Positions 6,367 to 52,200 of a stretch of 63,634 bases of DNA are shown here, piece by piece. This DNA is from a virus (taxonomy: Duplodnaviria; Caudoviricetes). The notes beneath the pieces were generated by a model. The model saw only the letters and a list, made by a program, of their open reading frames with translations, was not told the DNA's origin and did no database searches. The first letter of the stretch is position 1; each line of letters opens with the position of its first letter. Where the stretch lies: positions 1-63,634 of IMG/VR virus record IMGVR_UViG_3300030109_005543; one strand, 5' to 3'. The position numbers and the translations under genes were made by a program.

Positions 6367-7209
6367 ATGATTGAACGTAAAGAATTTACAGAAGAGATAA
6401 TGCTCCGTGAGAATGTGCGCAAGGCCATTCAGCATGTTTTGAGCAAAAGAGATGCTAAACAGCGTAAAGACGAGAGTCAACTCAGAGGCCTGATTAAGAA
6501 CCTTCTTGAGGGACAATCTGCAGTTGCTGCTGTTGCCAAGCATGACAGCACTGGTATCAACACTCTAGAGGATCTCCTCAAGAATTCCAATATTCTCTCT
6601 GTTGTAGAAACTGGATATAAGTCCCTCACTACCGACAAGCAGCAGAGAGAATCGTACAAGAACCATATTCTAAACGCTGTCGAGAAGTCTCTGGCCCCTG
6701 AAGAGGAGCGAAAAGAGGCTGGTGCAGACGGTGAGCTAGATACTGTAGAGGAAGATATTGATATCTCCATCTCTGGTGACAAGCCAGAGGATGATCCGGC
6801 ATTTATCGACATTGAAGATAAGGAAGAGCCCGCAGAAGAGACTGATGAGCGTGACGACTTTGGCATTGCTGGAGAAGATAAGACTGGACGTAACAGAGCA
6901 TATGATGACTTCCGAGATATTGAGAAAAACATCTTAACTGCTTTTGATAATCTCGACAATCCAAAAGATATCTCCATGTTTGAGGAGTATCTTCTCAAAA
7001 ACCTAGCTCTATACTTCGATAAGTTTGAGAGCGAACTCCAAGTAAACGTCGACGAGCCTGCTGCGGCCGCTGACGCTGTTCCGGATGCAGATAAGCCTGC
7101 AGATGTACCCGGCGAAGAGTCAGACCCTGAGACCGATCTCCCAGAGTTTGAACTTGAAGAGGGTGCAGAAATTAACTTAGAGAGTTTAGTCGACAGTCTT
7201 TTAGAATAA
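6367..7209 (+). CDS. Highly acidic hypothetical protein (possible head core or scaffold-type)
   Basis: 280 aa, D/E-rich, with L-x-E motifs. Confidence 0.7.
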   Translation: MIERKEFTEEIMLRENVRKAIQHVLSKRDAKQRKDESQLRGLIKNLLEGQSAVAAVAKHDSTGINTLEDLLKNSNILSVVETGYKSLTTDKQQRESYKNHILNAVEKSLAPEEERKEAGADGELDTVEEDIDISISGDKPEDDPAFIDIEDKEEPAEETDERDDFGIAGEDKTGRNRAYDDFRDIEKNILTAFDNLDNPKDISMFEEYLLKNLALYFDKFESELQVNVDEPAAAADAVPDADKPADVPGEESDPETDLPEFELEEGAEINLESLVDSLLE

Positions 7210-7215
7210 AAATAT

Positions 7216-7554
7216 ATGTCAAACCCTAGTACAGAAAAGGGTTTTAGCAGAAACAAGTCATTATCCAACAAGCTTCGCAAAGAGGGCAAATCCTCTGAGT
7301 CGTTTGAGATAATGCTATCTGCATTAACCCTCGAAGAAGTTATAGGACTTAAGCTAGAATGCTCCATGCGACTCACTAATGGTAAGTTGTATGGCTTTAA
7401 CCTTTGGTCAAAAATAGTTAATATAGCTAAAGAAGCATTGTATAATGCTACTGTTAGTGTAGCTGATACGAATGTTGAAATAAGAAGGATCCTTGGAATT
7501 AACCAAAGTTCGCTTGTTGAGATGAAGAAGAAGTTCAACATAGACAGAGAATAA
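7216..7554 (+). CDS. Hypothetical protein with a C-terminal Fis-like helix-turn-helix
   Basis: TNVEIRRILGINQSSLVEMKKKFNI resembles the Fis HTH [25 protein letters not shown]. Confidence 0.55.
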   Translation: MSNPSTEKGFSRNKSLSNKLRKEGKSSESFEIMLSALTLEEVIGLKLECSMRLTNGKLYGFNLWSKIVNIAKEALYNATVSVADTNVEIRRILGINQSSLVEMKKKFNIDRE

Positions 7555-7593
7555 ACTATTCTACTTTCTGTGTCAAGCACTATTTTGTAAAAG

Positions 7594-7675
7594 GGGGGTG
7601 GTTTGGGTTTCGACTGGGATTAAAACCTGCAATGGCAGTCTCAGGACCACGGTTCGACTCCGTGCACCTCCACCA
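7594..7675 (+). ncRNA. ssrA-like: Mini-tmRNA: tRNA-like domain of tmRNA only, with no mRNA-like domain
   Basis: Acceptor stem GGGGGTG/CACCTCC with G3-U70, discriminator A and CCA. D-loop analogue GG-GTTTCGAC; helix 2a CTGGGATT/AGTCTCAG; GAC linker; T-arm CACGG-TTCGACT-CCGTG. Only 15 nt lie where the tag frame and pseudoknots normally are. Confidence 0.85.
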
Positions 7676-7684
7676 AAAAAACTT

Positions 7685-7996
7685 ATGATTAAATGGTTAA
7701 AAACTAGAATATCTAACAAGTTAAACAACTTCTCCAAAGACAAGCTGAAGGCTTTTCTGAAAAAGAATGGACTTGCTTTTGTCATTATCTTTGTTGGTTG
7801 GGAAATTGTTGAGGATGTTGTATTCCCAATTATATTCGGTGTCCTTGGCAACTATGTGCACCCAGCATTTTACGCTGGAATCCCTGCGTCTCTGATCCTA
7901 TGTTTTCACTGGCTTGCAATTCCAATTCTTTGGGGCCTGTGGGTAAAACTGACAAACAAGCCAGACACTTACGACAAACACGACTGTTGCGAATAA
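7685..7996 (+). CDS. Small membrane protein
   Basis: Start reassigned to ATG 7685 (after the ncRNA); 103 aa with a basic N-terminus and 2-3 hydrophobic segments. Confidence 0.7.
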   Translation: MIKWLKTRISNKLNNFSKDKLKAFLKKNGLAFVIIFVGWEIVEDVVFPIIFGVLGNYVHPAFYAGIPASLILCFHWLAIPILWGLWVKLTNKPDTYDKHDCCE

Positions 7997-8011
7997 AAAT
8001 ATACTTTTTGC

Positions 8012-8040
8012 TTGCACTCTACAATTAATATTGTTATTAT
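8012..8040 (+). promoter_or_regulatory. Sigma70-like promoter
   Basis: TTGCAC-17 nt-TATTAT with an extended -10 TG, in an AT-rich intergenic gap upstream of 8055. Confidence 0.6.
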
Positions 8041-8054
8041 ATAATTAATATAAG

Positions 8055-8573
8055 GTGAATAAGATTGTAATTTGTTTATTGCTTCTACTTTGTTCCTGCT
8101 CTAATATAGGTGAAGAAGATATTAGAATAGAAGAGTATGGAGAGCAATATGCAATTATGGACTGCTGGTGGAGTAGGAATGAAGGTCCCAACACACTGGT
8201 CTTTTGGTGTGACAAGCAACTCGACACTCCACTGATATCCGGTTTTGTCAGCCTAGCTATTGAAAGAGATACTGAGGAAGAGCAATTCTTTTCTATCTGT
8301 GGAACAGATGTAATTCTTAATTCAGGATATGACCTGCATGATACTTTGATTGCCAGTCTTACTGATGATAATTATAACTGCTATAATCACTATGAAAATA
8401 ATATAGGTAATGAATTTGATTCCATATGGGATCCGGAAATCAATATTTTACAAATCATCTGGCGTCCACCAGATTCCACACATCAGGTTCTTACATTACA
8501 CATACCACCCTCAGAGGGAGATTCTGTAAGAGTTCTCGGTACCATCTATCACAAAATTGGCACATTTAACTAA
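8055..8573 (+). CDS. Putative lipoprotein
   Basis: MNKIVICLLLLLCSC signal peptide with a lipobox; GTG start. Confidence 0.65.
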   Translation: MNKIVICLLLLLCSCSNIGEEDIRIEEYGEQYAIMDCWWSRNEGPNTLVFWCDKQLDTPLISGFVSLAIERDTEEEQFFSICGTDVILNSGYDLHDTLIASLTDDNYNCYNHYENNIGNEFDSIWDPEINILQIIWRPPDSTHQVLTLHIPPSEGDSVRVLGTIYHKIGTFN

Positions 8574-8581
8574 GTATAAGT

Positions 8582-9166
8582 GTGAGTGATAATGTTAAAA
8601 TAATCCTTGGAGCACTTCTGTATGTCGTGTGCTTTGGTATGTCTGTTGTCTTGTTGGCCACCCCAGCCGATGCCAGCGACGTTCAAAGCAACTATGATAG
8701 AATTCCTCTTATTCATAACACTCCACCTCAAGTAGCGACTTGGGCCCTCACTCCTACAGTTATAGTCTGTGAGCATGCTCCTGTGAACCAAAGACAGATT
8801 ATTAAAGCAGTCAATTTCTGGAAACGTTTGGGATATAAATTCTACTCCACCCAATATAAACATGATCCCATGAATAAGTGCCTTATGGATGAGCCAATTG
8901 GTTATATTATTATTCATATGGTAACATCTGGTGTTCCAATGGAGGAAAAAGCACTCGCTCAAACACATTTCTATGTTGATAATCTTACAAACAAAATTTC
9001 GTATGCAAAAATATATATGAGATCAGATGTAAGAGAGACAGTCTTAGAGCATGAATTAGGTCATGCCCTAGGGTTCCTTCATTTCAACAAAATTAATCAT
9101 CTAATGAATGAAAAGTGGATGATGGGTGGCTGGGACACAGAAGGTCTCGAACAGCGCGCCCGCTAG
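8582..9166 (+). CDS. Secreted matrixin/M10-like metzincin metalloprotease
   Basis: HELGHALGFLH (HExxHxxGxxH) followed by the Met-turn HLM; N-terminal signal or TM segment. Confidence 0.85.
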   Translation: MSDNVKIILGALLYVVCFGMSVVLLATPADASDVQSNYDRIPLIHNTPPQVATWALTPTVIVCEHAPVNQRQIIKAVNFWKRLGYKFYSTQYKHDPMNKCLMDEPIGYIIIHMVTSGVPMEEKALAQTHFYVDNLTNKISYAKIYMRSDVRETVLEHELGHALGFLHFNKINHLMNEKWMMGGWDTEGLEQRAR

Positions 9167-11048: not shown

Positions 11049-11124
11049 GGGGATGTAGCTCAGTTGGGAGAGCAGTTGCCTTGCACGCATCAGGCCGCAG
11101 GTTCGACTCCTGTCATCTCCACCA
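11049..11124 (+). tRNA. tRNA-Ala(TGC)
   Basis: GGGGATG/CATCTCC with G3-U70, anticodon loop CT-TGC-AC, CCA. Confidence 0.95.
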
Positions 11125-11513: not shown

Positions 11514-12305
11514 ATGAGCAATACAGTATTATTATGTGCCCCCATTCACTTTGATGTGATTTACTCTATCAACCCTTGGATGGTTGGTGAGCCAGTTAAC
11601 AGCGCCGTCGCCCTTGAGCAGTGGTTTCGTCTTAAAGATACCCTTGAAGAGTGGGGTGTTAGTGTAAAGCTCATAGGACAAGTGGGTAATCTACCAGACA
11701 TGGTGTTTACCGCCAATGCTGGTACAGTTCGTGGCAATAAAGTAGTTTTAAGCAATTTTAGGTTCCCTGAAAGACAGCCCGAAACAGATGTATATGAGAA
11801 CTGGTTTAAGGAAGAGGGGTATGAAACCTACCGATTGCCAAAGAAGTATAACTTCGAAGGCTGTGGAGACACTGTAATCTCCGGAGATAAGATGTATGCA
11901 GGGTATGGTGTCCGCTCTGACCTTGGCGGGATTCGAAGAGCGGCCAAGATTCTCGACCTGGAACTGATCCCTTTGAAGTTGAGTCACAATAGTTTCTATC
12001 ATCTGGACACCTGCTTCTGTTTATTGAACAATCAGTGTGCCATGTATTATCCCGGAGCCTTTACACCTTCTGCACTGAAGAAATTACGCAAACATATTCC
12101 AGATCTGATTCCGTTAGATGTTCATGATGCAGCTCATTTCGCAGCAAATTCAGTAGTTTATCAAGAAAATAGAGTCCTCATGCCAGCTGGCCCACAGAAG
12201 ATCGTCGAGGAGCTGGACATCAGAGGCGTTGAAGTTACACACATCAATACAAGCGAGTTCCTAAAGTCCGGCGGCTCGCTACAATGTATGACACTATGGA
12301 TATAA
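11514..12305 (+). CDS. Amidinotransferase/dimethylargininase (pentein) family protein
   Basis: PDMVFTANAG, EGCGD, YHLDTCF and GGSLQCMT motifs (Cys-His-acid catalytic set). Confidence 0.9.
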   Translation: MSNTVLLCAPIHFDVIYSINPWMVGEPVNSAVALEQWFRLKDTLEEWGVSVKLIGQVGNLPDMVFTANAGTVRGNKVVLSNFRFPERQPETDVYENWFKEEGYETYRLPKKYNFEGCGDTVISGDKMYAGYGVRSDLGGIRRAAKILDLELIPLKLSHNSFYHLDTCFCLLNNQCAMYYPGAFTPSALKKLRKHIPDLIPLDVHDAAHFAANSVVYQENRVLMPAGPQKIVEELDIRGVEVTHINTSEFLKSGGSLQCMTLWI

Positions 12306-12634
12306 CACCTTACTGCTACAACGCGTTGATTACGAAGGTTTATGATGGTGACACTGTAACAGCCCTCGTTGATTTAGGCTTTAAGATCAAGACCACAATA
12401 AAAGTTAGATTAGCCGGGATCAACGCACCGGAAGTCCGCGGCAAGAGCAGGCCTGAAGGATTGAAGACCAGAGATTTCCTTAGAGATCTTATCCTAGATC
12501 AAGAGGTCATAATTCAGACACAAAAAGATAAAAAAGGTAAATATGGTCGTTATATTGGTGTAATATATCTGAAAGACAAGAATGTTAACGAACTATTAGT
12601 AGAAAAGAAGTTAGCAGTAAAGAAAGAATATTAG
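12284..12634 (+). CDS. Thermonuclease (SNase-like)
   Basis: KVYDGDTV, VRLAGINAPE and GKYGRYIG motifs; the start could be ATG 12296. Confidence 0.9.
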   Translation: MYDTMDITPYCYNALITKVYDGDTVTALVDLGFKIKTTIKVRLAGINAPEVRGKSRPEGLKTRDFLRDLILDQEVIIQTQKDKKGKYGRYIGVIYLKDKNVNELLVEKKLAVKKEY

Positions 12635-12708
12635 CGGGTGTAGCTCAGTGGTAGAGCATCGCCTTGCCAAGGCGAGGGTCGTGAGTTCGAATCTCATCAC
12701 CCGCTCCA
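12634..12708 (+). tRNA. tRNA-Gly(GCC)
   Basis: GCGGGTG/CACCCGC, TCGCC-TT-GCC-AA-GGCGA, U73, CCA. Confidence 0.95.
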
Positions 12709-28318: not shown

Positions 28319-29132
28319 TATAAAAGTACGTTTGGCCGAAAGGTCGTTGGGTCCAAGTGTCTATGGCGACCTGTTCACAGACCAGCCATCAGATATTACG
28401 GTGTATGCCGATGTGGCCTGCTGGTCCGCACCGCATCACCATAGTAAATATAAAATTGCATTGTTGATTGAGCCGATTACGGTTGCAGGCGGGACATACA
28501 AGTGGGTATACCAGAATCATTCATATTTTGACCTGATCATGACACATAACAAGGACATGGCAGCGAATGCTGATAAGTTTGTATACTATCCAATATGGCC
28601 AAAGATCTGGATTCCTAAAGAAGACAGAAAGATGTACGATAAGTCTAAGATGGCATCTGCTATCTTCTCTGCGGCGGCTGTGACCCAAGGTCATCGCTTC
28701 CGACACGAAATCGTTAAGGAATTGAAGGATCTTAATGTGATGGATGTGTATGGTAGAGAATACAATCCTGTTGAAACAAAAACAGAGGGTCTAGCAGACT
28801 ATCGATACCATGTTGTGGTTGAGAATGAAGAAAACGGATACGCCAGCGAAAAGGTCAATGATGCGTTCTGTTGTGGGTCCATCCCCATATACTGGGGCAA
28901 CGAAGGCTCGAACATTCATGATTATTATAATACCGAAGGTGTCTTGTTCTTCCAGACGATAGACGAGCTGAAAGATATTCTGACCAACGTTGTCTCTGAA
29001 GAGCATTACAACAGCAAGCTGAGCGTGGTAGAAGAGAATTACAACTTAGCTAAAGACTTGACTCTAGATCATATATACTGGAATTACGGTATTAAGCAGT
29101 TTGCTGAACAAAAAGGATTGATAGATAAATGA
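28311..29132 (+). CDS. GT10-like (alpha-1,3-fucosyltransferase motif) glycosyltransferase
   Basis: YRYHVVVEN...YASEKVNDAFCCGSIPIYWG. Confidence 0.75.
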   Translation: MYDIKVRLAERSLGPSVYGDLFTDQPSDITVYADVACWSAPHHHSKYKIALLIEPITVAGGTYKWVYQNHSYFDLIMTHNKDMAANADKFVYYPIWPKIWIPKEDRKMYDKSKMASAIFSAAAVTQGHRFRHEIVKELKDLNVMDVYGREYNPVETKTEGLADYRYHVVVENEENGYASEKVNDAFCCGSIPIYWGNEGSNIHDYYNTEGVLFFQTIDELKDILTNVVSEEHYNSKLSVVEENYNLAKDLTLDHIYWNYGIKQFAEQKGLIDK

Positions 29133-35613: not shown

Positions 35614-38600
35614 ATGACTTCCATCATAACAAAAAAATATCTAAGTAAAACTTTTAATGTGCCGTTTTATGAGCGGTCAAGTGAATCTAGCAAAGTCCGA
35701 ATGAAGGTTGGCCGCGCCAATAGTGCTGACGAGATTGTTGGCAACAGCGCCAATATCCGTGATGCAGCACGCGAGTTCATTACATCATACCTCCCTGAGT
35801 TTTACTCTGCCCTATATGATGAGGAATATTTTGCAACAGAGGCCAATGGTGATCTTGATTTAGCAAATCAACTAGTGCTCGATATCCAAGATTCTATCAC
35901 TGTTGAATCATTCTACCAGACATTCCCTCCATCGAACAAAACAGTCGTTATTTTTAGATCTGTTTATAACTTCGACAAAAAGAGGGAGGAACTGCTTTCG
36001 AATGATACGATGCCTGACTTCGATGCAAACCTGGCGTTCTTCAATGAACAACAGAGCATCGTAGGAGAGATTTCAGAGACCACACTTACGGTTGGGACAC
36101 TCGGTAGCCAAAATAATCTTCTGAACAATGGTCTTAAGTCCTTTGATACACAGTATGGTGGCTTTGAGGGACAGATAGACATCAACGTTGCATTTGGTCC
36201 CCTGCAATTGCAGGCAACGGGTATTCTGAATGTACTTGTGGCCATCCTGTCTGAGCAGACAAAGATCCAGAGCCCCAGCTATGATTTCTCCGAAGCTGAT
36301 ACAATCACCATAATTTTTGGCAAGAAGCGCGGGAAGCTTGCTGTGTCTAGAATAGATTATCTCCTCGTCGAGGATTCGATTGAAAGTCAGCCTCTGCGCG
36401 TGGGTTACTTCTCGATCATCAAGAATAACAAACTACTAAAAGACCCGCTGACTCTGGCGATCCTAAGAAACTATCAGAACCTGCTCACAGCATTCCAGGG
36501 TAACATCGACACACAAAACCCGTATTCTTTCTTTGACTTTCTGAACGATGACTCGGTTAGAGACTCGCTAGGACTCACAGGAGACCTGATAGAGAACTTC
36601 CAACTCCAACCCAAGAAGGATATGACCAATGAACTCCTCCGGGTGGCATCAGATCAGGGCCTTATAGATATCAATAACGTTGATCAGTTGGAAAAAGGAT
36701 TCAAGGATTACTTCACATCGGAGGAATACAGAAAGCTCAAGCAGGAAGTCGCTGACAATCCAGAGGTGTTTAAGAGAGTTGCTGCAGCCCAGTCTGTCAA
36801 AGCTCTTACAACTGCAGCAGATGTTTCAAATACCATCGCTAATGTTATTGAACAGGGCCCATTGGGTCTAATTCAGAAGAAGAACCCAAAAGTTGCATAC
36901 ATCATGCGACAGTTTGGAATTGATGAGATTGCAAAAGAAGCGTTCTTGTGCTTAACTTTCGGCGCCTCTGCAGCCGCTGCAAGAGTCGGCCGTGCTACAG
37001 CTAATGCTCTGACAAGTGCTGCAGCCTCAGTTTACATACCTCCTGACTTGCCAAAGCGCGCTCCAATTAGCTTGCCGGAAATTGATTTTGAGAAGTTCAA
37101 GCCATTTACGATCTCTGGGGACTTGTGGAAACAAATCGAGAAAGTTCTGATCGATACAGTTCAGCAGATTGTCTTGGAGATCATCAAGCAGCTTGCCGAC
37201 TTGCTGAGGGAAAATTGCCCAACTACATCACCACGATCTACCGATTATGGTCAGAACGACATCACAAGCTTTATTAACGATAACTCCAATCCGCAATTGG
37301 ATGGTCTACCACAGGTAGGTGCCACATCACAGCTCGACCAACTGTCAGCGAAGAATGGCCTCTCGGTCCAACAGACACTGGACTATCTGAGCGCCCTTTC
37401 ATCTATACTAAGCTCGATTGATATTTGCACACTGATGTTGAATAGAAACGATGCACCACCCGATCTACTCGATAAGATATTGGACTTCAATGCAGAGTAT
37501 TCAGATACCGTAGTTGGCGAGAGGCTGGACTCAATAACCCAAATTCTAGGGTTCTTTGAAGACTTGTCTGCAAGCGTTGACGTAACCGACCTCTGTAATC
37601 AAATTGCCAACGACCTTTATGCCCTTAATCAAGACAACGTATGTCTAGATGCAGGGATCTTTGATGACGAAAATATCAACGATCTGTTAAGACTTATAGA
37701 AGACGGGCTGGTGATTGATCTTCCAGACCTTGATCTCGATTGCCCAGATTCAGAGTTCCTAGATCCAACAATCGGTAAGTCAGTACCAGAGACATTCAAT
37801 GTATTGGCAGAAACAGTGCAGCTCCAGTTTATTGCCTCTGGTGATTCAGTGAAGGAGATTATGCTGCAGCCAGTTCAGGCAAATGAATCCCCAGTGCTTA
37901 GCGGTATTCAGTATGCTGATGAGCTTCGAGGTATAGAAAGAGACCTGGGTCCAGGCATCTCTCCGGAGTTCTTGCAAAAAATTGTGAGTGTCCTACAGGA
38001 TGTGAAGGATGGCTTCGACGATCTTGAGACTAGACTACAAGAATGCGATGTCGATATCGCTCGTATTCTGGGCACAGACCAGGCCGCTGCAATTGGAACC
38101 GTCAGCACAATGGCCGGCGCCCTAACGGATGCTTCCAATGACCCTAACTTCAGAGACGCGATACAAAACGTCATTGATAACATTCAGGGACTGGACAACC
38201 CAGCAAACATAGAAAACCCGGTTTTCACAACGTATAAATTTAATCAAAACTTTATCGATGCTCTTAGGGATTACATAATCCCCGAGACGTTTGAGTATGA
38301 TTCTCAAACACTTCAAACACTGACGCAGAGGTTTTACAGTTCGTATATTGTTGCAGCCGGCGAACCCGACGCGTACAAAGATCTACAGCTCCTGTTTAGG
38401 TTTGCGGAGGAGAATGACATCTCCCTTCTGCCATCCCTTAACGAAAGTGGGCAGCACTTCCACTACTACGTCAACGCTGCCAACGATCCAAGCGGATTGG
38501 GCTACGTTATACATCAAGATGATGAGCCAATCTTTTCCCCGAACTCGACGCTTGTGAGGCAAGAAGCCGGCCTTCCGGCCAATGAATATGACATAAACGA

Positions 38601-40953
38601 CTTTACGCGAATTGACCCACCATACACTAGCAATCAATTAAGATACGTCAACACTCATGTGTCCACCAATACTACAACAAATGCCATTTCGGTCTACCTA
38701 TCGTTTAATGATCTAGATGATAAAGATGAATACTATGTTTTGGAAGAAGCGCAACTCTTCATTATGAACCAGTATCCTAACGCTGAGATGAGAAACGTTG
38801 TGCCACAAGTTAGGTATCAAAATTACGATGTGCAATATAACGTTCCTACAGGTCCTGAGTTTTATGGATATCAAATTAATGGGCGCCTCGATGTAACAAT
38901 AGAGGATCCACAGGTTGGCGATGGTGTTCACGATACAGAAAATGGTATATACATTCCATCCCATAATCACCCTGGTTACCCTGAATGGGGCCCTTCAACT
39001 CTGCAGGCACCATTCGCCATCGACCAGCAGGCAACCTCCACCACAACAGCGTTTCAGCCCCTTGCGGAGAACCTTCAGAATTCATTCCTTGAGTCGTATG
39101 CGAATACAGGTCTTGGAGAACAGGTTGGTACGCCTCCTTCAGGCTTCCCGAACTCTCTTGCTATAACGTATCCTGCAAAGCCCGAAGACTATGAAGAGCC
39201 TCAGCTGATCGCTGATTTTAATCTGCGCAGATTTTTCCTTAACAACGCAGAAGACGAAATCATCGGTGGCTCAAAGACGGCAACAGTTTCAGAGATTGAA
39301 TATAATGACTCTTCGGTTAACAGTCTGGGTGACACCGCAAATGCCTTTGTGTATAAGTTTGCAGAGGCAATCATTAGCGAAATGGATTCCCCTGATACTG
39401 AGAATGGGCTGGAGGTATACTACAGTGACTTCCCGCAAGCATATGGTCAGCTTGTTGATAATGCATTTGATTATGTTTTAAACAATGGTATTTTTGACGC
39501 TGCGACACTTCAGTCGCTAAACTTCTTCACTCAGACAGAAAACTGCCCGCCATCTGAGCTAGGTGATCTCCTCGATATAGACGGAATTATTCAGCAGATG
39601 ATGGATGAGTATAAGGAGGGTTGTGCAGATGACATCCCTCTAAGCTCTAAGATTAGAAACGTGATCAAATACGGCATGTATCAGCTCCTGGTTCAGGTCC
39701 ACATCGCTGAGGTTATTATTAAGAACATTTTTGTTCTGTCGGCCTATAACATCGACGGTCTCCTCGATCGCGATAACTTTGTGTTTGCCTTCATTAGAGG
39801 TCAGATATTGCAGTCACTGCTAGTTTACTTTGACCAGAACGGCCCACAATTGGGCAATGTGGTGCGCTTGGATCTGGTCTCGTATTTCAATACGAAGACT
39901 AAGAGAATACCTGTAGTTAACCAAGGTGGTATTCTCTATCAGGATGGTACCGTTGCAATCCCTGACGGCACTGAGTTCTCGGTCACTACTGAACCCACCT
40001 TTTTTGGTTTCGATGAGATCTTAGACTTTATTATCACAGATCGAATAGATCGCAGCAGGCTGGCAATCAACAACGCTCTCCGGAAGGCGCTCCCAAACAC
40101 TAACCAATTATCTTTTGATGAGTCTGTGTTGCGGACACTTCCTGGCCTGACAGTCGAGACCGATACACCTGAAGCGATCAGTCAGATACTATCAAGCATC
40201 GAGGAATCTTCATTGACAGCTGAGGTTCTGAACATTCCTGAAGTTGGATTGATAATGACATTGAGAGTTGAGAACATTTATGCAGACAGTTCAACAGCAT
40301 CTGAGGAGGCAGCTCAAACGTACGAAAACTTAACCACTCTGCAAAGACAAGAAAATAACCTTGCCCCAATTGAATATGACCCCGGTGATTTTACTCTAAT
40401 CAATCCGCCATATACCAGCAGTCAACTAAGATATGTTAACGGCCATGTATCTATTAATACCTCAAATAATGCGGTATCGGTATACACCGCACGCAATGAT
40501 ATCGACGACGATGAGTTTACAGTGCTCAGTGTAGCTCAAGCGGAGGTGGCCGCCCTGTATCCTCAGTATGCAAACGTTGAAATGAGGAACGTGGTCGCGC
40601 AGGTTAGGTTTCAGTATGTGGATTTCAGTTTCAACCCGCCTATTCCTTCGGGCCCTGAGTTTTATGGATATCAGGTCAACGGCCGCCTGGATACAACGCT
40701 GGAGCAGCCAACCGCCGCTGAAGCTATAGAGGAGATTCTTGGTGACCCAATCGACTCTAACAGACACTTCAAGCTCTGGTTCAAAAAAGGAAACGATGTT
40801 TATTTGCTAATTGATCTGGGTTATACACCAGCTGGCGGCCCACCTGAACCGCCACCATCACTTATCCCGCCTGTTGCAGAATCAGAAGGACTTCTGCAGT
40901 ACTCACAGGACAATTTTTCAACTCCTTCTATTCCGCCTATGGTTGGGCCATAA
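35614..40953 (+). CDS. Large virion structural protein (1779 aa) with an internal domain duplication
   Basis: Long acidic ORF in the baseplate module containing two ~110-aa paralogous segments. Confidence 0.7.
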   Translation: MTSIITKKYLSKTFNVPFYERSSESSKVRMKVGRANSADEIVGNSANIRDAAREFITSYLPEFYSALYDEEYFATEANGDLDLANQLVLDIQDSITVESFYQTFPPSNKTVVIFRSVYNFDKKREELLSNDTMPDFDANLAFFNEQQSIVGEISETTLTVGTLGSQNNLLNNGLKSFDTQYGGFEGQIDINVAFGPLQLQATGILNVLVAILSEQTKIQSPSYDFSEADTITIIFGKKRGKLAVSRIDYLLVEDSIESQPLRVGYFSIIKNNKLLKDPLTLAILRNYQNLLTAFQGNIDTQNPYSFFDFLNDDSVRDSLGLTGDLIENFQLQPKKDMTNELLRVASDQGLIDINNVDQLEKGFKDYFTSEEYRKLKQEVADNPEVFKRVAAAQSVKALTTAADVSNTIANVIEQGPLGLIQKKNPKVAYIMRQFGIDEIAKEAFLCLTFGASAAAARVGRATANALTSAAASVYIPPDLPKRAPISLPEIDFEKFKPFTISGDLWKQIEKVLIDTVQQIVLEIIKQLADLLRENCPTTSPRSTDYGQNDITSFINDNSNPQLDGLPQVGATSQLDQLSAKNGLSVQQTLDYLSALSSILSSIDICTLMLNRNDAPPDLLDKILDFNAEYSDTVVGERLDSITQILGFFEDLSASVDVTDLCNQIANDLYALNQDNVCLDAGIFDDENINDLLRLIEDGLVIDLPDLDLDCPDSEFLDPTIGKSVPETFNVLAETVQLQFIASGDSVKEIMLQPVQANESPVLSGIQYADELRGIERDLGPGISPEFLQKIVSVLQDVKDGFDDLETRLQECDVDIARILGTDQAAAIGTVSTMAGALTDASNDPNFRDAIQNVIDNIQGLDNPANIENPVFTTYKFNQNFIDALRDYIIPETFEYDSQTLQTLTQRFYSSYIVAAGEPDAYKDLQLLFRFAEENDISLLPSLNESGQHFHYYVNAANDPSGLGYVIHQDDEPIFSPNSTLVRQEAGLPANEYDINDFTRIDPPYTSNQLRYVNTHVSTNTTTNAISVYLSFNDLDDKDEYYVLEEAQLFIMNQYPNAEMRNVVPQVRYQNYDVQYNVPTGPEFYGYQINGRLDVTIEDPQVGDGVHDTENGIYIPSHNHPGYPEWGPSTLQAPFAIDQQATSTTTAFQPLAENLQNSFLESYANTGLGEQVGTPPSGFPNSLAITYPAKPEDYEEPQLIADFNLRRFFLNNAEDEIIGGSKTATVSEIEYNDSSVNSLGDTANAFVYKFAEAIISEMDSPDTENGLEVYYSDFPQAYGQLVDNAFDYVLNNGIFDAATLQSLNFFTQTENCPPSELGDLLDIDGIIQQMMDEYKEGCADDIPLSSKIRNVIKYGMYQLLVQVHIAEVIIKNIFVLSAYNIDGLLDRDNFVFAFIRGQILQSLLVYFDQNGPQLGNVVRLDLVSYFNTKTKRIPVVNQGGILYQDGTVAIPDGTEFSVTTEPTFFGFDEILDFIITDRIDRSRLAINNALRKALPNTNQLSFDESVLRTLPGLTVETDTPEAISQILSSIEESSLTAEVLNIPEVGLIMTLRVENIYADSSTASEEAAQTYENLTTLQRQENNLAPIEYDPGDFTLINPPYTSSQLRYVNGHVSINTSNNAVSVYTARNDIDDDEFTVLSVAQAEVAALYPQYANVEMRNVVAQVRFQYVDFSFNPPIPSGPEFYGYQVNGRLDTTLEQPTAAEAIEEILGDPIDSNRHFKLWFKKGNDVYLLIDLGYTPAGGPPEPPPSLIPPVAESEGLLQYSQDNFSTPSIPPMVGP
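38584..40710 (+). repeat. Dispersed intragenic duplication (about 38584-38910 and 40372-40710)
   Basis: EYD..DFT.I.PPYTS.QLRYVN.HVS.NT..NA.SVY...EMRNVV.QVR.Q...GPEFYGYQ.NGRLD occurs in both copies. Confidence 0.9.
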
Positions 40954-46213: not shown

Positions 46214-49200
46214 ATGAGCCTTAAAAAGTATTTTGAGATCACTGATAAAATCAAATCTCTTTCCGGTAAAACGGCGGATCAAATCGGCTCTCAAGTCGAG
46301 TCCGTCGCTTACCATGAACAAGATATCATCGAAGAGGAAAGGTTTATTCCAAGAGTAGACTTCTCCGACCCGAAGAATTTTGCTCGCTATGGCTCCGCCG
46401 AAGAATATTATGATCAGTCTGTAAAGAGGATCTACAACGAGTATCCTTATGATGGCTCGTTAAGAGAGAAGCTGGAATGGAGAAACGCTTCAACCTATAT
46501 CGATCTCCATGTATTCGACAATCTGTATCCAAGAACAAACGGATACATTATCCACGGACTAGACTGGGGTACCACGCGTACAATGACAGACGGGTATGGA
46601 GACCCGGCTGATGATGAGTACATCTTTGTAAAGGGCGGCCCGAATGCCAACCCTAACGGGATGTCCCCAAAGTCAACTCAGTTTACTGGCTCTAACTACT
46701 ACGAGCCATCAATGAACAGAGGGTCAAACCTAGAGTTTGATCTAACAACTCATGGCGCCACATTAGAGTTCTGGCTGAACAAGACCGAATTTATCACTGG
46801 CTCGACAGAAAAAGAGGTTATCTTTGACCTCTGGAACGGCGCCCTCTCGTCCTCTGCAGATTATTTACGATTCAGGCTGGAGCTGTCAGGCACCACATCG
46901 GGTGCGGATCCGTGGCTCCTGACGGTAATTTCGGGAACAACAGGTTTTCAGTCAACTTCAGTCGCAGCTTCTAGCATCACAACAGCTTCCGTCGCAGACG
47001 GCAACTGGCATCACTACGCAGTTACTGTTAAGTCTGACACTGATAATGATGTTATAGAGACAAGATTCTACGTCGATGGTAACCTCAATAGGCAGCAACT
47101 TCTCGGCAAAGCCGTCAACGATACTGATGGTTCTTCACACCGCGCCTACATTGGTGCTCTCATCGCGCCACCATCTAGCTCCACAGCGAATGCCTCTGCC
47201 GGTAAACTCTCTGCTTCGCTTGATGAATTGCGCTACTGGAAGACACAGCGAAGCTCCGAAGAGATCGGCCGCTTCTGGTTTACACAGGTAGGTGGCGGCG
47301 TCAATACAGACCCCACTCCATTTACGACCACTGAAGAGTCGGCTAACATTGACCTTGGTGTGTACTTTAAGTTTAACGAAGGAATCACCGGGACCAGCTC
47401 CACCGACAGCACAGTGTTGGATTACTCTGGTCGTTTCTCGAATGGTTCGTGGACTGGGTATGCGTCTGGCGCGCGACAGACTGGATCTGCTATTGTCCTC
47501 TCTAATGCGGCCACCAAGGAGTTCAAGGACCCGATTATTTATGCCTTCCACCCGGATGTAAAGTCCATCGCCGCCGGCCTTCAGGCATCTGGCTCTGCAC
47601 ACGATAACGAGAACAACGCGGCGATCTATAACTCAATCCCTTCATGGATTACAGAAGAGGATCAAGAGGGTACAAAGAATGTTAAGTATCTTACACAGAT
47701 TATTTCTAGCTATTTTGATACCCTGCACTTACAGATTGACAGTCTAAACAGTCTCAAAAATATTGAATACCCCAGTGGCAGTGATAAGCCGCTGCCTTTT
47801 GCTGAGAGACTTCTAAACTCATATGGCTTTGTTGCTCCGGAAATCTTCCTAGATTCCGATGTATTAGAAAAGCTTGCTGACAGAAGCGAAGATAGGGTTT
47901 ATGAGAAGTCGCTCCATGATATTAAGAACACGATTTATCAGAATATTTACAACAACTTAAACTACATCTATAAGACAAAGGGCACAGAGAAGGGATTCAG
48001 AAACCTTATTCGCTGCTTTGGCATTGATGATGAGCTGGTTAAGCTCAATATGTACGCTGATAATATCAAGTATGACCTCGACAACAACAGAAGAAACATC
48101 ATTGTTGCTGACAAATTTGCTAACTTCAACACATCTGACGGCCAGACAGCTGTAATCTACAACTACAAGGACACTACAAACTCTAATTCTGTTGGTTTTG
48201 TAACGGCTAGCGCTGATCTACAGAATGGCTATGCCTCCACTTTGGAAACAGAGGTCCTGCTTCCACTCAAGCTAGCCCGCGACTCCCGAGCATTTGTTGA
48301 TACAAACACTATCAGTGCATCGCTGTTCGGAACCCACGGGACTGTTTACTCTGGGACAGACACCACTTGGGATCCCGAAGATAGGGTTAACTTCCAGGTT
48401 TACGCCGTTCGTGATGAGATCAACTCAACAAACGCTAAGTTCGTCTTAACCGGCACTGCGGGAGGCTTTGTCCCATCGCTGGAATCACAGTTGTATGAAG
48501 ACATATATAACAACACCAGGTGGAATCTTTCTGTTCGAATTAGACCAGACCAATATCCACTTACAAACCTCGTTCACGGCACTGATAACGATTATGTCGT
48601 CGAGCTGCATGGTGTTCAGGCCGAAGCTGGCGAGATTCTCCAGGAGTTTACTGTTTCTGGAACCGTGACAGCCCCACCAGCTGGTTTTGTTACAGGCAGC
48701 AAGCGTGTATATGTTGGCGCACATAGAACAAACTTCACCGGCGCTGTCCTTCAGTCGGCCGACGTTAAGGTCAATTCGTGTAGATATTGGCTTGACTACA
48801 TTAACGATGAGGCCCTTGAGGGCCACATCCTCGACACCGAGAACTTCGGTGCACTCCAGCCACACTTGTATGCGTATGAGTTTAAGATGTCTGGTTCCAA
48901 TATGGACATCTCCAAGTTTGATACGCTTGCATTCAACTGGGAGTTCTTGACAAACACAGGCTCCAACGCCGGCGGCCAGTTCATTGTCGATGATCTTAGC
49001 TCTGGTTCTGCTGAATTAACAACATTTGGTGAGCTAGGAAACATTCTGAACAAGCAGTATACGGCCCGAGGCGACTTCTTCAAAGCATCCTCCACCGATC
49101 CTATCGACAAAGACTTTGTTGTTTCCTCTAAGTTAAATCTACCAGAGAACGTCCAATCACAAGATATGGTCCGAGTGCTGAATGCACAAGAGCAGGACGT

Positions 49201-52200
49201 CTTTACAACAGAGTCTAGGCCCATCAACTACTTCTTTGCTTTCGAAAAGAGCATGTATCAGACAATCTCAGAGGAGATAATCAATTACTTCGCGACACTG
49301 AGAGACCTTCATAATCTGATCGGTGATCCAGTCGAGAAGTATAGAACTGACTACAAGCAGATGGCGTATATGCGCCGAAAGTTCTTCGAGAAGGTAGGCA
49401 ATGATGAGCTAGACTTTGACAAGTTCTATGAGTTCTATAAGTGGTTTGATACCTCACTATCCTTAATGCTGGGTCAGTTGGTGCCAGCCTCCGCAGATTT
49501 TGCTGACACTGTTCGAACGGTGGTTGAGAATCATGTTCTGGAAAGACCTAAGTACCAGCGTAAGTTCCCATTCCTACAGAGGGAGGGCGGAGTAGACCTT
49601 GAAGGAACCCTTACATCATCAAACGTCTCGGCTCCTTCTCGTCCAGAGCCAGGCTCGCCTTCGATGGTATACCTTGCCAACACGGCGATTACTCGACGAC
49701 AGATCGGTACATCCAATCCTACTCGATTTAAAGAATACAAGTTTAACCATGCTCCACTTTCGGGAGCTAACGCTCACCTGCCATGGCAGAGGTATAGACA
49801 GGGCACAGGCAGTGCCTCAGACCCGCGTGCAGGCATTCTGGCGGCACTTAATTCGACTTACACCCGAATGATCGGAGCCCCGGTAAACGTTAATTTTGGA
49901 GCCGTACAAACCATTGGCGGTGTACTCCGCCACTCAAGCAATAAGCCGAACTTCACATTTGCTGCAGCAGCCCCATATGGCCCAAATGTCGATCAGCCCT
50001 CGACAAACATTCCGGTTAACATTATGCTGTCCTTTGATACCGATATTGAACAGCTTGTTGATACTCCGGACGTCTACTTCGCTAATCGAAAGCAACGCCT
50101 GGGCTTTGGCCTGAACCCATCACAAAACCGCAGCGGTTCAGAGGATTTAAAATTTGATGGCAACATGTATGCACCATTTAGTTTGTACAGCTCATCCGTC
50201 CAGACTGGTTACAACGCTGCCATTGTTGAAAGTTACTCCACGGGCGCGATGATTACAAACCTGCATAACGATTTTGTTAACAGCACAGACACGGGTCTCC
50301 AGGGGCCGTTTACAGAGAAGTTTGTCGGCGGCCGCTTCTATCGACACGCAGAACTAAACGATGGCACCGATAGAAGAACAAACAGACCCGAAGGTTTCCG
50401 ACTCCTCTTGGGTCTTGGGTACCCTCCAACTCTAGAAGTTCCTGTTGGAGCCTCCGGTGCCCTGGGCATTGTGGCACCAAACTATCCGTTCGCAGATTCC
50501 CCAGCTGGGTCAGCACCTGACGGCTTCTTGCCAGAGACACCAACAGCACAGCGCTTCCGCGATGAAACTGCAAAGCGTCCGGTTAACATTAAGAACATTC
50601 TTATGTCTACCGGATCGACAGCTGTAAGGCTTTCCGGCACCATTGTTCACAACCAGATTGGTAACTATCAGAAGAACTATCAAGTCATCCAGACTGCAGG
50701 ACGTACGATTAACGATCCATTCTTCAAGGATCAGTCTATTACTTTTGCTGCAGATCCAGAGACAACTGCAACACGAGGGCGCTTCCCGCTAGGCACCGCA
50801 ACATCATCTACAGCGAACACTGGCGGAGACATTGACTTTACACTGCCAGACAGAACGGGTGCCAACTCTAATGAGACAGTATTCGTCAACCTGTTCTCGT
50901 CCCCCGGATCTTTTGAAGTATTGTCAAGAGGCTATCTTGATCCTGCTCACGAAGAGTTGTCGGTATATAACGCAAGCCCATACCGCAACCGAGGTATTAT
51001 CTCTCATGGTATGTCAGGTTCTGCCTCCCTTGATCCTGATGAGGCCAACACCATTGCCGTAGTTGACCAGATCGATAAGAATCGTGGCCTGAATCAGCTG
51101 GCAACTCTGCACGCTGGACGTTTTGGATCCGATGCAGCATATGGATCCGTCCCGGCAGCGAGTTATGTAACAGTTCCATCTTGGCATAAGACAAACCGAA
51201 ACAGAGCCCGTCGCCCCGAGTTGTCGGGAACACACACTCTCTTTACGGGTTCGCACTTCGATAACCTGTTCGTTCAGCACGCAATCCCTCGATCACTTCA
51301 GCAATACACTTGGGTAACAGCCTCATTGGGGCAGAACCAGATAATCTACTCCAACAACAGGCCAACTTGTTTCAGCGCTAGTTCGCTGGATGAGCTGACG
51401 CAGACAGGATCCTACTCAAACGTAACATTTGTTGGTCTCAACACACGCTTGATTGATCCAGTGTCTGCCTCCGCGCATGTTCTTGGTTTCCCATCAAGTT
51501 CAAACGCTAGCTCCTCCTACATCAACGCTGATTTCTTCCCTGGCAATCCGTTGGACAACGAGGCTGATTTGCTTAACGTATTGACTACCATGCGTAATGG
51601 AGCATTTGGATATCCAACCTGGAAGCAGATCCGCACCGGCGAGACAAAGACAGCACGCGCGCTGATTAGAACAAACCAGATCGGATATCTGCCGTTGCCA
51701 GAGAGGCTCCCTTCGGGTCCTCAGCGAACCCAACCAGCCCAAGGATTGCAACCAAATAACTTTATTGACCTTACCGAGGCACCAATCTCTCTCAATGCTT
51801 CGCCGATTACATTCGCATTGGAGGACAACACAGCTAACTCCGATCCAGCAAACAACATGGTTGTTACGGTTCCGTTTAGAAACCAGATCGATTACTTCTC
51901 GCATAATGAATTGAACAACTTCTATAACCTGAAGTCCGACCCGAGCAACCTAAACTCATACAACACAATTCTTGACTTTACATTGAGCAGTAGCTTGAGT
52001 GTTGTGGTCTCATACACGGAAAACCTGTACCCGGCGGATATCAACATGTTTGATGATCGGGTAAGACGACGAACCGGATTCACGATTGACAATGCTTGGA
52101 ACGATGACCGCACTCAGCGCAGCTTGATAGGGCCACGCATAGCAAGATCCGGCATTTCCGGGTTCCCTGGCCTGATTAGCTCCCAGGGAGTGAATGTTGA

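What the first reader, a model, noticed from the sequence alone, without database searches (positions are those of the whole stretch)
7594..7675. Phage-encoded mini-tmRNA: an intact tRNA-like domain with the whole message/tag domain missing
Seen in the sequence: this 82-nt element matches the two ends of bacterial tmRNA element by element. It has a 7-bp acceptor stem GGGGGTG/CACCTCC with G3-U70, A73 and CCA; a stemless D-loop ending GG-GTTTCGAC (E. coli ssrA: GG-ATTCGAC); an 8-bp helix 2a CTGGGATT/AGTCTCAG; the GAC linker; and a perfect T-arm. Helix 2a is closed by only 15 nt. Established: G3-U70 is the AlaRS identity element, the D-loop/linker elbow binds SmpB, and normal tmRNA carries about 270 nt of pseudoknots and tag frame at this position. 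Tagless tmRNAs are known from jakobid and oomycete mitochondria. Inference: this RNA could be alanylated and enter stalled ribosomes with SmpB but cannot add a degradation tag. It could therefore act as an SmpB/EF-Tu decoy that inhibits trans-translation, or as a tag-free rescue or Ala-adding RNA that protects phage proteins. All stems are intact, which argues against a decayed pseudogene.
Basis: partly seen in the sequence, partly recalled or inferred. Interest (0 to 1): 0.95.

Follow-up and report, generated by a model that had tools for sequence, protein, structure and literature searches.

The report
Tagless mini-tmRNA of a marine phage
This 82-base phage gene encodes only the tRNA-like head of the bacterial ribosome-rescue RNA (tmRNA), without its tag message, and it belongs to a large, conserved and nearly virus-only RNA family that probably interferes with or bypasses the host's rescue-and-tag system.

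Summary
Window 7594-7675 (+) matches Rfam tmRNA end to end (67 bits, cut-off 47), with 306 model positions replaced by 13 nt. It is not an artefact. Independent marine contigs bridge it unchanged. Five related phage records, one 100% complete, each carry only an 82-83 nt form, with no full-length tmRNA and no SmpB. Stems covary strongly: 98% of cells are paired against 68-69% when shuffled, 0/500 shuffles reaching it, in two separate sets. The same pattern in bacterial genomes gave minis in only 9 of 106 hits. The kind is already known. Mycobacteriophage DS6A has a 'TLD only' tmRNA, and the SmpB-titration idea is in print (PMC4131195, PMC11915505). My model scores DS6A at 63.9 bits. The most likely function is a competitor of host tmRNA for SmpB, EF-Tu and stalled ribosomes. 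Tag-free rescue is the main rival. No function was tested here. It is a new member of a known kind, but the family's breadth appears unreported in the texts I searched.

The parts
7594..7675 (+). Whole mini-tmRNA (tRNA-like domain only, 82 nt, CCA encoded)
   Evidence: Rfam RF00023 67.0 bits, model 1-374; own model R1 91.8 bits
7594..7600 (+). Acceptor stem, 5' strand (GGGGGUG); G3 at 7596
   Evidence: Pairs 7/7 with 7665-7671. Positions 5-7 covary across the family
7601..7613 (+). D-loop analogue without a stem (..GGGUUUCGA)
   Evidence: Aligned to the Rfam consensus GAucuGGaUUCGA. 11-16 nt long across the family
7614..7621 (+). Helix 2a, 5' strand (CUGGGAUU)
   Evidence: Pairs with 7637-7644. 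The first 6 pairs are 95-96% paired across the family, and 5 of those 6 show compensatory changes
7622..7636 (+). 15-nt cap in place of pseudoknots and tag frame: an A-run, then CC..GG
   Evidence: Too short for a resume codon plus a frame. It resembles the 5' strand of canonical helix 2b-d in the Rfam consensus. An A-run followed by CC occurs in 101 of 158 distinct homologues
7637..7644 (+). Helix 2a, 3' strand (AGUCUCAG)
7645..7647 (+). GAC linker
   Evidence: GAC in 83 of 96 homologues from the scan that fixed only AC
7648..7664 (+). T arm (5 bp plus the UUCGACU loop)
   Evidence: 99.8-100% of cells paired. 5 of 5 pairs show compensatory changes in A4 and 4 of 5 in A5
7665..7671 (+). Acceptor stem, 3' strand (CACCUCC); U70 at 7669
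7672..7675 (+). Discriminator A and encoded CCA
7571..7576 (+). TGTCAA motif 17 nt upstream of the mature 5' end, function unknown (it reads TTGACA on the minus strand)
   Evidence: Invariant in 11 of 11 contigs of the window's clade while the surrounding flanks diverge. Listed as a minus-strand -35-like hexamer
7216..7554 (+). Upstream ORF (112 aa, no PHROG match), same strand
7685..7996 (+). Downstream ORF (103 aa, no PHROG match). Its ATG lies 9 nt after the CCA and no terminator lies between them
   Evidence: The same ORF follows the element in 7 of 11 clade members

Best explanation
The element is a functional phage gene for a tmRNA that has been reduced to its tRNA-like domain (TLD). Shown here: it has the tmRNA acceptor stem with G3.U70 and A73-CCA, a stemless D-loop, helix 2a and a T arm, but no pseudoknots and no tag frame. 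It belongs to a large, almost virus-only family whose stems covary. The phage clade carries no full-length tmRNA and no SmpB. Inferred: it is transcribed with its same-strand neighbours and cut out by host RNase P and 3' trimming. It is then charged with alanine by host AlaRS and bound by host SmpB and EF-Tu. In that form it competes with host tmRNA for SmpB and for stalled ribosomes. Because it has no resume codon, no degradation tag is added. The net effect is that host trans-translation tagging is damped or blocked during infection. I put the identity as a selected TLD-only tmRNA at about 0.95. The confidence below is for the competitor mechanism.
For: Identity: RF00023 67 bits end to end. 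7 of 7 other minis tested also pass the Rfam cut-off (51-75 bits). Selection, set A4 of 88 distinct sequences: 98.5% of cells paired against 69.4% shuffled and 47-55% with partners slid; 486 cells changed on both sides against 129; 0 of 500 shuffles reach the observed value. Set A5, none of whose sequences went into the model, has 80 distinct sequences and gives 98.1% against 68.4%. G3.U70 is present in 79 of 79 distinct sequences of scan 1, where only U70 was imposed, and in DS6A, which no pattern selected. Virus link: 99 of 104 IMG/VR pattern hits are minis, against 9 of 106 hits in bacterial and archaeal genomes. Dependence on the host: SmpB found in 0 of 6 records, counting the window. No full-length or permuted tmRNA over the cut-off. 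No conserved neighbouring protein. Not an artefact: bridging contigs from two other studies and no joints. [quoted passage not shown] A TLD-only tmRNA undergoes peptidyl transfer in vitro (PMC3895274, citing Shimizu and Ueda 2006). A truncated tmRNA with SmpB and EF-Tu was crystallised on the ribosome (PMC8363625). One listed reference title says minimal translation of the tag region is required for ribosome release (O'Connor 2007, seen), which favours blocking over rescue.
Against: Nothing here shows expression, processing, charging or SmpB binding. No RNA run was listed. The host is unknown. I could not read Mao et al. 2009, the experiment behind the decoy idea, and know it only through two citing papers. 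Some phages need trans-translation: lambda-immP22 plates 10,000-fold worse on ssrA or smpB mutants (PMC2862035), so blocking it is not obviously useful to a phage. If titrating SmpB does not need charging, as the Hudson 2014 passage says, then the strict conservation of G3.U70 and the acceptor stem suggests that charging and ribosome entry are what is selected. That fits a ribosome-level competitor, but it fits tag-free rescue equally well. The recurrent cap motif is not explained by this model.
Confidence: 0.5

Rival explanations
1. Tag-free rescue RNA. The charged mini-tmRNA, with host SmpB, enters stalled ribosomes and accepts the nascent chain on its alanine. The peptidyl-RNA is then released by host ArfB or Pth, or by drop-off. 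This frees ribosomes for phage translation without tagging, and adds rescue capacity when infection or host nucleases create many broken mRNAs.
For: G3.U70, A73 and the full EF-Tu-binding acceptor and T helices are strictly kept, which is more than SmpB titration alone would seem to need. TLD-only tmRNA accepts peptide in vitro (PMC3895274 passage). lambda-immP22 growth depends on ribosome recycling and not on proteolysis targeting (PMC2862035 Background). CDS-less organellar tmRNAs that co-occur with SmpB are thought to help with incomplete mRNAs (PMC11915505 passage).
Against: There is no stop codon, so no ordinary termination. One reference title (O'Connor 2007, seen) says minimal translation of the tag region is required for release. 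Neither an RF-1/ArfB-like gene nor a Pth gene was found in any of 5 records of the clade (0 of 5 each), one of them 100% complete, so release would rest entirely on the host. According to the passages, expression of a similar molecule inhibited tmRNA.
Confidence: 0.25
2. Decoy for host immunity rather than for quality control. The TLD soaks up or misleads host factors that read tmRNA or tRNA-like shapes, for example defence proteins with SmpB-like domains, RNase R, or tRNA-cutting nucleases.
For: CoCoNuT defence systems carry SmpB-like domains predicted to bind tmRNA (PMC11090510 passages). A phage anti-CRISPR protein acts together with tRNA and tmRNA fragments of about 90 nt that bind RNase R (PMC11662646 passages). 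The family is almost confined to viruses. 27 of 100 minis lie within 200 nt of a phage tRNA gene.
Against: This is purely circumstantial, and no defence or anti-defence gene is linked to the locus. Conservation of the exact AlaRS and EF-Tu determinants is not needed for a protein decoy.
Confidence: 0.1
3. Half of a new split tmRNA. The conserved cap, a relic of the 5' strand of helix 2b-d, pairs in trans with a separately encoded message piece, or with host RNA, so tagging still takes place.
For: The cap resembles the canonical helix 2 5' strand whose cis partner has been deleted. Two-piece tmRNAs exist in nature (RF04321; the RpAliso example).
Against: No significant complement of the cap occurs in the window: 3 matches at up to 2 mismatches, one of them the element itself, against 1.97 expected. 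No permuted tmRNA is over the cut-off in 4 records. In 76 of 158 homologues the cap can form its own 3-bp hairpin.
Confidence: 0.03
4. Non-functional remnant: a decaying ssrA pseudogene, an attP fragment for integration into host ssrA, or an assembly deletion.
For: Phages often integrate into ssrA and carry its 3' end (PMC9004378 passage).
Against: Both strands of the acceptor stem are present and covary. There are 158 distinct sequences, most often 81-83 nt long. No integrase was found in any of 5 records of the clade. Independent contigs bridge the element with no joint. Within the clade the flanks diverge while the element stays conserved, with compensatory T-stem changes.
Confidence: 0.02

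Closest known systems
Mycobacteriophage DS6A 'TLD only' tmRNA (tmRNA Website; Hudson, Lau and Williams 2014; Mao et al. 2009, known to me only through citations)
   Same: Phage-encoded, 83 nt, same order of parts: acceptor with G3.U70, stemless D-loop, short helix 2a, small cap, T arm. My model built from IMG/VR minis scores it 63.9 bits end to end. Its cap shares the A-run plus CCGCACGCGG hairpin with several IMG/VR minis. It is intergenic and unannotated in the GenBank record.
   Different: DS6A is a 60.6-kb actinophage, whereas the window is a fragment of a marine myovirus whose complete relative is 194 kb. DS6A has GGUCGAC where the window has UUUCGAC, a CAC linker instead of GAC, and no encoded CCA. 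It scores 43.2 bits with Rfam tmRNA, below the cut-off of 47, against 67 for the window element.
Canonical one-piece tmRNA (Rfam RF00023)
   Same: The 5' and 3' ends align to the model, including G3.U70, the D-loop, helix 2a, the GAC linker, the T arm and ACCA. The cap keeps a trace of the helix 2b-d 5' strand.
   Different: It lacks about 300 nt: pseudoknots PK1-4, the resume codon, the tag frame and the 3' strand of helix 2b-d. It therefore cannot template a tag.
CDS-less organellar tmRNAs (jakobid mitochondria, Rfam RF02544; Mallomonadaceae plastids, about 65 bp)
   Same: tmRNA reduced to a tRNA-like domain with no tag frame (PMC11915505 passage).
   Different: The mt-tmRNA model finds nothing in the window at E up to 10. 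Those are organellar, vertically inherited and paired with a dedicated SmpB. This one is viral and has no SmpB of its own.
Engineered TLD constructs used in biochemistry and crystallography
   Same: An acceptor, T arm, D-loop and helix 2a unit closed by a short loop. [quoted passage not shown]
   Different: Those are laboratory truncations. I did not compare sequences or structures with them here.
tRNA-Ala
   Same: G3.U70, A73, CCA and the T arm.
   Different: The element has no D stem and no anticodon arm. ARAGORN does not call it a tRNA. With the tmRNA model it scores 67 bits, against 32.7 for the phage's real tRNA-Ala.

Membership tests
tmRNA (Rfam RF00023) | Scores above the curated gathering threshold of the covariance model | tested here: met
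   67.0 bits against 47, model 1-374
tmRNA (Rfam RF00023) | tRNA-like domain: 7-bp acceptor stem with G3.U70, discriminator A, CCA, T arm, D-loop without a stem | tested here: met
   Read directly and aligned to the consensus
tmRNA (Rfam RF00023) | mRNA-like domain with a resume codon, a tag reading frame and a stop | tested here: not met
   Only 15 nt lie between the helix 2a strands. 306 model positions are replaced by 13 nt
tmRNA (Rfam RF00023) | Pseudoknot ring (PK1-PK4) | tested here: not met
   Absent, as for the tag frame
tmRNA (Rfam RF00023) | Charged by AlaRS and bound by SmpB and EF-Tu | not testable with these tools
   Only the sequence determinants are present
TLD-only (CDS-less) phage tmRNA, DS6A type | Complete tRNA-like domain, with helix 2a closed by a short cap and no tag frame | tested here: met
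   Same architecture in DS6A
TLD-only (CDS-less) phage tmRNA, DS6A type | One sequence-and-structure model covers both it and DS6A | tested here: met
   R1 scores the window 91.8 bits and DS6A 63.9 bits, both 1-82. The window's own sequence was among the 24 used to build R1; DS6A was not
TLD-only (CDS-less) phage tmRNA, DS6A type | Encoded by a phage that has no full-length tmRNA | tested here: met
   The window is an IMG/VR virus record with PhoH and a baseplate wedge gene. 5 of 5 relatives have only the mini over the cut-off, and there is no permuted form. The window itself is only about 40% of a genome
TLD-only (CDS-less) phage tmRNA, DS6A type | Inhibits host tmRNA function when expressed | not testable with these tools
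   Reported for a similar molecule, according to passages in PMC4131195 and PMC11915505
mt-tmRNA (Rfam RF02544) | Match to the family's covariance model | tested here: not met
   No match at E up to 10
tRNA (Rfam RF00005) | Cloverleaf with a D stem and an anticodon arm | tested here: not met
   Not called by ARAGORN. tmRNA is the best model of the clan at this place. There is no D stem and no 7-nt anticodon loop

The most novel reading that the evidence does not exclude
Mini-tmRNAs are a widespread class of phage-encoded RNA effector that acts on the host's ribosome-rescue and RNA-surveillance machinery. A charged TLD enters stalled ribosomes with hijacked SmpB and EF-Tu. There it either shuts down tagging or adds untemplated alanine. 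Its conserved cap, an A-run plus a small CC..GG hairpin, would be a docking site for an unknown partner, which could include host defence proteins with SmpB-like domains. On this reading it would be an anti-quality-control or anti-defence RNA and not a degenerate gene.
Probability: 0.15. Interest if true: 0.85.

Novelty: new member of a known kind. Interest (0 to 1): 0.6.

Why it matters
Trans-translation is nearly universal in bacteria and is an antibiotic target. How phages deal with it is largely unknown. In the papers I could search, a phage tmRNA reduced to its tRNA-like domain appears as a single curiosity, DS6A. This window shows the same device in an unrelated large marine myovirus. 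The follow-up shows that it is a family: at least 195 further viral loci and 158 distinct sequences, from scans that were cut short. The family has strong covariation, a tight size of about 81-83 nt, and almost no presence in cellular genomes. That turns a one-off into a testable hypothesis, namely that many phages carry a small RNA that competes with or replaces host tmRNA. It also exposes an annotation gap. ARAGORN missed 94 of 100 minis and mis-called 6 as tmRNAs of about 320-400 nt with invented tags. The DS6A element is unannotated in GenBank.

Tried and rejected
The MFE fold of the element alone gives a non-canonical fold with z -1.2. That is uninformative, as is usual for tRNA-like RNAs. 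The canonical fold lies within 2-5 kcal/mol of it.

ARAGORN gave no tmRNA call in the window. The mt-tmRNA model gave no match.

BLAST against 50,697 phage records gave no match for window 6500-9000. The 82-nt query gave only partial T-arm hits. Its best hit, Ruegeria phage RpAliso, turned out to carry a full permuted tmRNA and not a mini. Three other minis used as queries found only the DS6A records, plus a weak tRNA-like hit in Tunturiibacter phage Tunturi_5 (30.9 bits, no UUCGAC D-loop). The nearest cultured phages by baseplate protein, at about 29-30% identity, are Microcystis phage Mel-JY01 and Flavobacterium phage immuto. Neither has a mini. I therefore found no cultured host-phage pair other than DS6A. 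These were a few BLAST queries and not a model scan of that collection.

Expression: no RNA holder was listed, so nothing can be said about expression. Only DNA contigs were laid.

Partner genes: no protein family is conserved next to the minis. The best cluster spans 5 clades and 7 loci within 3 kb either side. No SmpB, integrase, RF-1/ArfB or Pth was found in the clade. The window and three of the five relatives are under 60% complete by CheckV, a fourth is 82%, and one is 100%.

Trans-pairing partner for the cap: not above chance in the window.

MAFFT alignment A1 of all 79 sequences misaligned the 5' ends, so I did not use it for pair counts. I used anchor-based counts and model-based alignments instead. 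The latter lean towards the model's structure.

Selection caveats. Scan 1 imposed UUCGAC, GGAC, the T-loop core, CUCC and ACCA. Scan 2 imposed GGGG, UCGAC, AC, part of the T loop and CUCC. I then kept only hits with a 7/7 acceptor (scan 1), or a 7/7 acceptor plus a 5/5 T stem (scan 2). Conservation of those letters, and acceptor pairing as such, are therefore partly built in. Pairing in the T stem (scan 1) and in helix 2a was not selected.

Rows dropped: 5 of 104 hits in scan 1 (L095, cut by the contig end; L018, L039, L077, L093). 2 of 98 new loci in scan 2 (L225, and L258 with 6/7). 97 of 106 genome hits, which are the 3' ends of ordinary tmRNAs.

Host: not determined. Single versus multiple origins of the family: not tested.

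Literature. Searches found no paper describing a phage family of TLD-only tmRNAs beyond DS6A. The library lacks most subscription journals, and Mao et al. 2009 could not be read. Supplementary files were not opened. Table S1 of PMC9004378, which lists phage tmRNAs, might include such forms.

Full report
WHAT IS THERE. Window 7594-7675 (+) reads as follows. A 7-bp acceptor stem (GGGGGUG/CACCUCC, with G3.U70). A 13-nt D-loop analogue with no stem, followed by the C of UUUCGAC that opens helix 2a. An 8-bp helix 2a, two pairs of which are G.U. A 15-nt cap. A GAC linker. A perfect 5-bp T arm with loop UUCGACU. Then A and CCA. Rfam's tmRNA model (RF00023) matches exactly these coordinates end to end: 67.0 bits against a gathering score of 47, E 6e-24, with 306 internal model positions replaced by 13 nt. 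The phage's genuine tRNA-Ala at 11049 scores only 32.7 bits with that model. A pattern for the tRNA-like domain occurs once in the window and in 0 of 100 shuffles.

ARAGORN does not call the element. The unconstrained MFE is a different fold (-29.4 kcal/mol, z -1.2), while the canonical fold is worth -24.5 to -27.4 kcal/mol.

CONTEXT. The window is an IMG/VR virus record, linear and about 40% complete. It carries PhoH, glycosyltransferases and a T4-type baseplate wedge protein. It has five tRNA genes 2.6-5 kb downstream of the element. Its baseplate protein is only about 29-30% identical to the nearest cultured phages, Microcystis phage Mel-JY01 and Flavobacterium phage immuto. The DNA is held by marine metagenome runs from nine studies.

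The element sits between two same-strand ORFs, 7216-7554 and 7685-7996. The downstream ATG is 9 nt after the CCA and no terminator lies between them. Release from a longer transcript by RNase P and 3' trimming is therefore the likely route. This is an inference.

NOT AN ARTEFACT, NOT A REMNANT. Contigs from two other studies bridge the element. One, of 326 nt, covers 7538-7863 with no difference. The other, of 322 nt, covers 7367-7689 with three substitutions and a 1-nt deletion just upstream of the element. No joints were reported.

Ten other IMG/VR contigs carry near-identical 82-83 nt copies. In an alignment with 150-nt flanks, the element is almost invariant while the flanks diverge. The few changes include compensatory ones, for example T stem CACGG/CCGUG to CGCGG/CCGCG. 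The downstream neighbour differs in 4 of 11.

Whole-record searches of five of these relatives, one of them 193,778 bases and 100% complete, find one over-threshold tmRNA hit each. In every case it is the mini. They find no permuted tmRNA, no SmpB, no integrase, no RF-1/ArfB and no Pth.

A FAMILY. A strict pattern for the domain hit 104 IMG/VR stretches. 99 of these have a perfect 7-bp acceptor stem starting GGGG. With the window, they make 79 distinct sequences of 74-92 nt.

Of its 98 new loci, 96 have a 7/7 acceptor and a 5/5 T stem, giving 79 further distinct sequences. 80 of the 96 lack an encoded CCA.

Lengths across the 158 distinct sequences peak at 82 nt (44), 81 nt (29) and 83 nt (28). 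7 of 7 other members that I tested pass Rfam's tmRNA threshold end to end.

As a control, the strict pattern in 596 Gb of bacterial and archaeal genomes hit 106 stretches. Only 9 are minis. The other 97 are the 3' ends of ordinary tmRNAs. One of the nine lies in a Prochlorococcus single-cell assembly, at the same coordinates on a contig of the same length as an IMG/VR virus contig.

COVARIATION. Counts anchored on fixed motifs, which need no alignment, show the following in the 79 sequences of scan 1.
- T-stem pairs 1 and 2 use all four Watson-Crick pairs about equally. 78-79 of 79 are paired at every T-stem position.
- Helix 2a positions 2-6 are paired in 79, 79, 75, 73 and 66 of 79, with 5-6 pair types each.
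- Acceptor positions 5-7 covary.

I built a covariance model (R1) from 24 members. On 88 distinct sequences aligned to it, 98.5% of cells are paired, against 69.4% in shuffles and 47-55% with partners slid. 486 cells are changed on both sides, against 129. 13 of 18 pairs show compensatory change, and 0 of 500 shuffles reach the observed value.

The scan-2 set, none of whose sequences went into the model, gives 98.1% against 68.4% and 444 against 131 cells (97 of 98 loci hit, 80 distinct).

Caveats. The acceptor pairing, and in scan 2 the T-stem pairing too, were selection criteria. Model-fitted alignments lean towards the model. Shuffles ignore relatedness, though the slid controls keep it.

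THE CAP. The 12-35 nt between the helix 2a strands cannot hold a resume codon and a tag. The cap is not random, however. 101 of 158 have an A-run followed by CC. 76 can form a 3-bp CCN/NGG hairpin. 19 keep a string like the 5' strand of canonical helix 2b-d, as seen in the Rfam consensus.

I infer that the minis arose by deletion of everything between that strand and the 3' strand of helix 2a. Why the motif persists is unexplained. I found no complementary partner for it in the window.

WHAT IS KNOWN. Hudson, Lau and Williams 2014 list 'Mycobacterium phage DS6A (TLD only)'. [quoted passage not shown] The 2025 tmRNA database paper groups DS6A with CDS-less tmRNAs of jakobid mitochondria and Mallomonadaceae plastids (passage).

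I located the DS6A element at 28478-28560 of JN698994. It is 83 nt, intergenic and unannotated. It scores 43.2 bits with Rfam, below the threshold, but 63.9 bits end to end with R1. It shares the A-run plus CCGCACGCGG cap with several IMG/VR members. The window's element is therefore a new member of the DS6A kind.

Six full-text searches found no description of a broad phage family. The library is incomplete, and I could not read Mao et al. 2009 or any supplement.

HOW IT LIKELY WORKS. Established knowledge, taken from passages: G3.U70 is the alanine identity pair shared by tmRNAs and tRNA-Ala. TLD-only tmRNA accepts peptide in vitro. A truncated tmRNA with SmpB and EF-Tu was crystallised on the ribosome.

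Since the phage clade has no SmpB, the RNA must use the host's. The best-supported model (0.5) is a competitor. Charged or not, it ties up SmpB, and probably EF-Tu and stalled ribosomes too, so host tmRNA cannot tag nascent chains.

The main rival (0.25) is tag-free rescue, with release by host ArfB or Pth, or by drop-off. The strict retention of charging and EF-Tu determinants fits this at least as well. The lack of any stop codon counts against it, as does the reported inhibitory effect of a similar molecule.

Lesser rivals are a decoy for host defence proteins with SmpB-like domains or for RNase R (0.1), one half of a split tmRNA (0.03), and a dead remnant (0.02).

The minis have no conserved protein neighbour. 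27 of 100 lie within 200 nt of a tRNA gene, which is consistent with a stand-alone RNA gene processed like phage tRNAs.

VERDICT. The added value is the size, conservation and virus-specificity of the family, and the fact that standard annotation misses it. ARAGORN missed 94 of 100 minis and mis-called 6 as tmRNAs of about 320-400 nt with unidentified tags.

Noticed in passing
L035 13302-13377 (-); L045 1621-1716 (+): Pistol ribozyme (RF02679) hits at 69.6 and 54.8 bits (cut-off 34.5) lie a few kb from the mini-tmRNA in two related viral contigs. One of the two is the same contig as a Prochlorococcus single-cell assembly record.
   Followed up: no
L089 5493-5835, L006, L017, L029 5905-6228, L074, L081: ARAGORN calls six minis as tmRNAs of about 320-400 nt by joining the mini's 3' half to a spurious upstream 5' domain. 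It reports 'Tag not identified' in the three inspected. Such calls in phage annotations may hide mini-tmRNAs.
   Followed up: partly
L108 2895-3116 (OR257569, Ruegeria phage RpAliso): A full permuted (two-piece) tmRNA, 129.5 bits with RF04321, sits in a region with no annotated feature in the GenBank record, next to a tRNA array.
   Followed up: no
window 7571-7576: TGTCAA (TTGACA on the minus strand), 17 nt before the mature 5' end, is invariant in all 11 contigs of the clade, although the surrounding intergenic sequence diverges. It could be a promoter or processing signal.
   Followed up: partly
window 7578-7712, run X1: Summed contig depth rises from about 14 to 54-137 only over the element. 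Loose ends there read like the caps of other mini-tmRNA lineages seen in L010 and L106. Several phage lineages with different minis seem to share the same marine samples.
   Followed up: no
L135 and L159: Two different contigs of one Bacillota MAG each carry an 80-nt mini-tmRNA, and the two sequences are slightly different. This could be two phages or prophages, or a binning effect.
   Followed up: no
window 12284-12634 (+) and 12634-12708 (+): An ORF matching the PHROG endonuclease family phrog_452 (E 1.4e-29) ends at the first base of tRNA-Gly, inside the phage tRNA cluster.
   Followed up: no
window 35614-40953 and 46214-55000 (+): Two very large ORFs (1779 and 2928 aa) lie in the structural region near the baseplate wedge gene. 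I did not examine them.
   Followed up: no
L319 1453-1530 (PP885688, Tunturiibacter phage Tunturi_5): A weak tRNA-like element (R1 30.9 bits) has a tmRNA-like T arm and ACCA but no UUCGAC D-loop. It is unannotated, in a 308.7-kb phage.
   Followed up: partly
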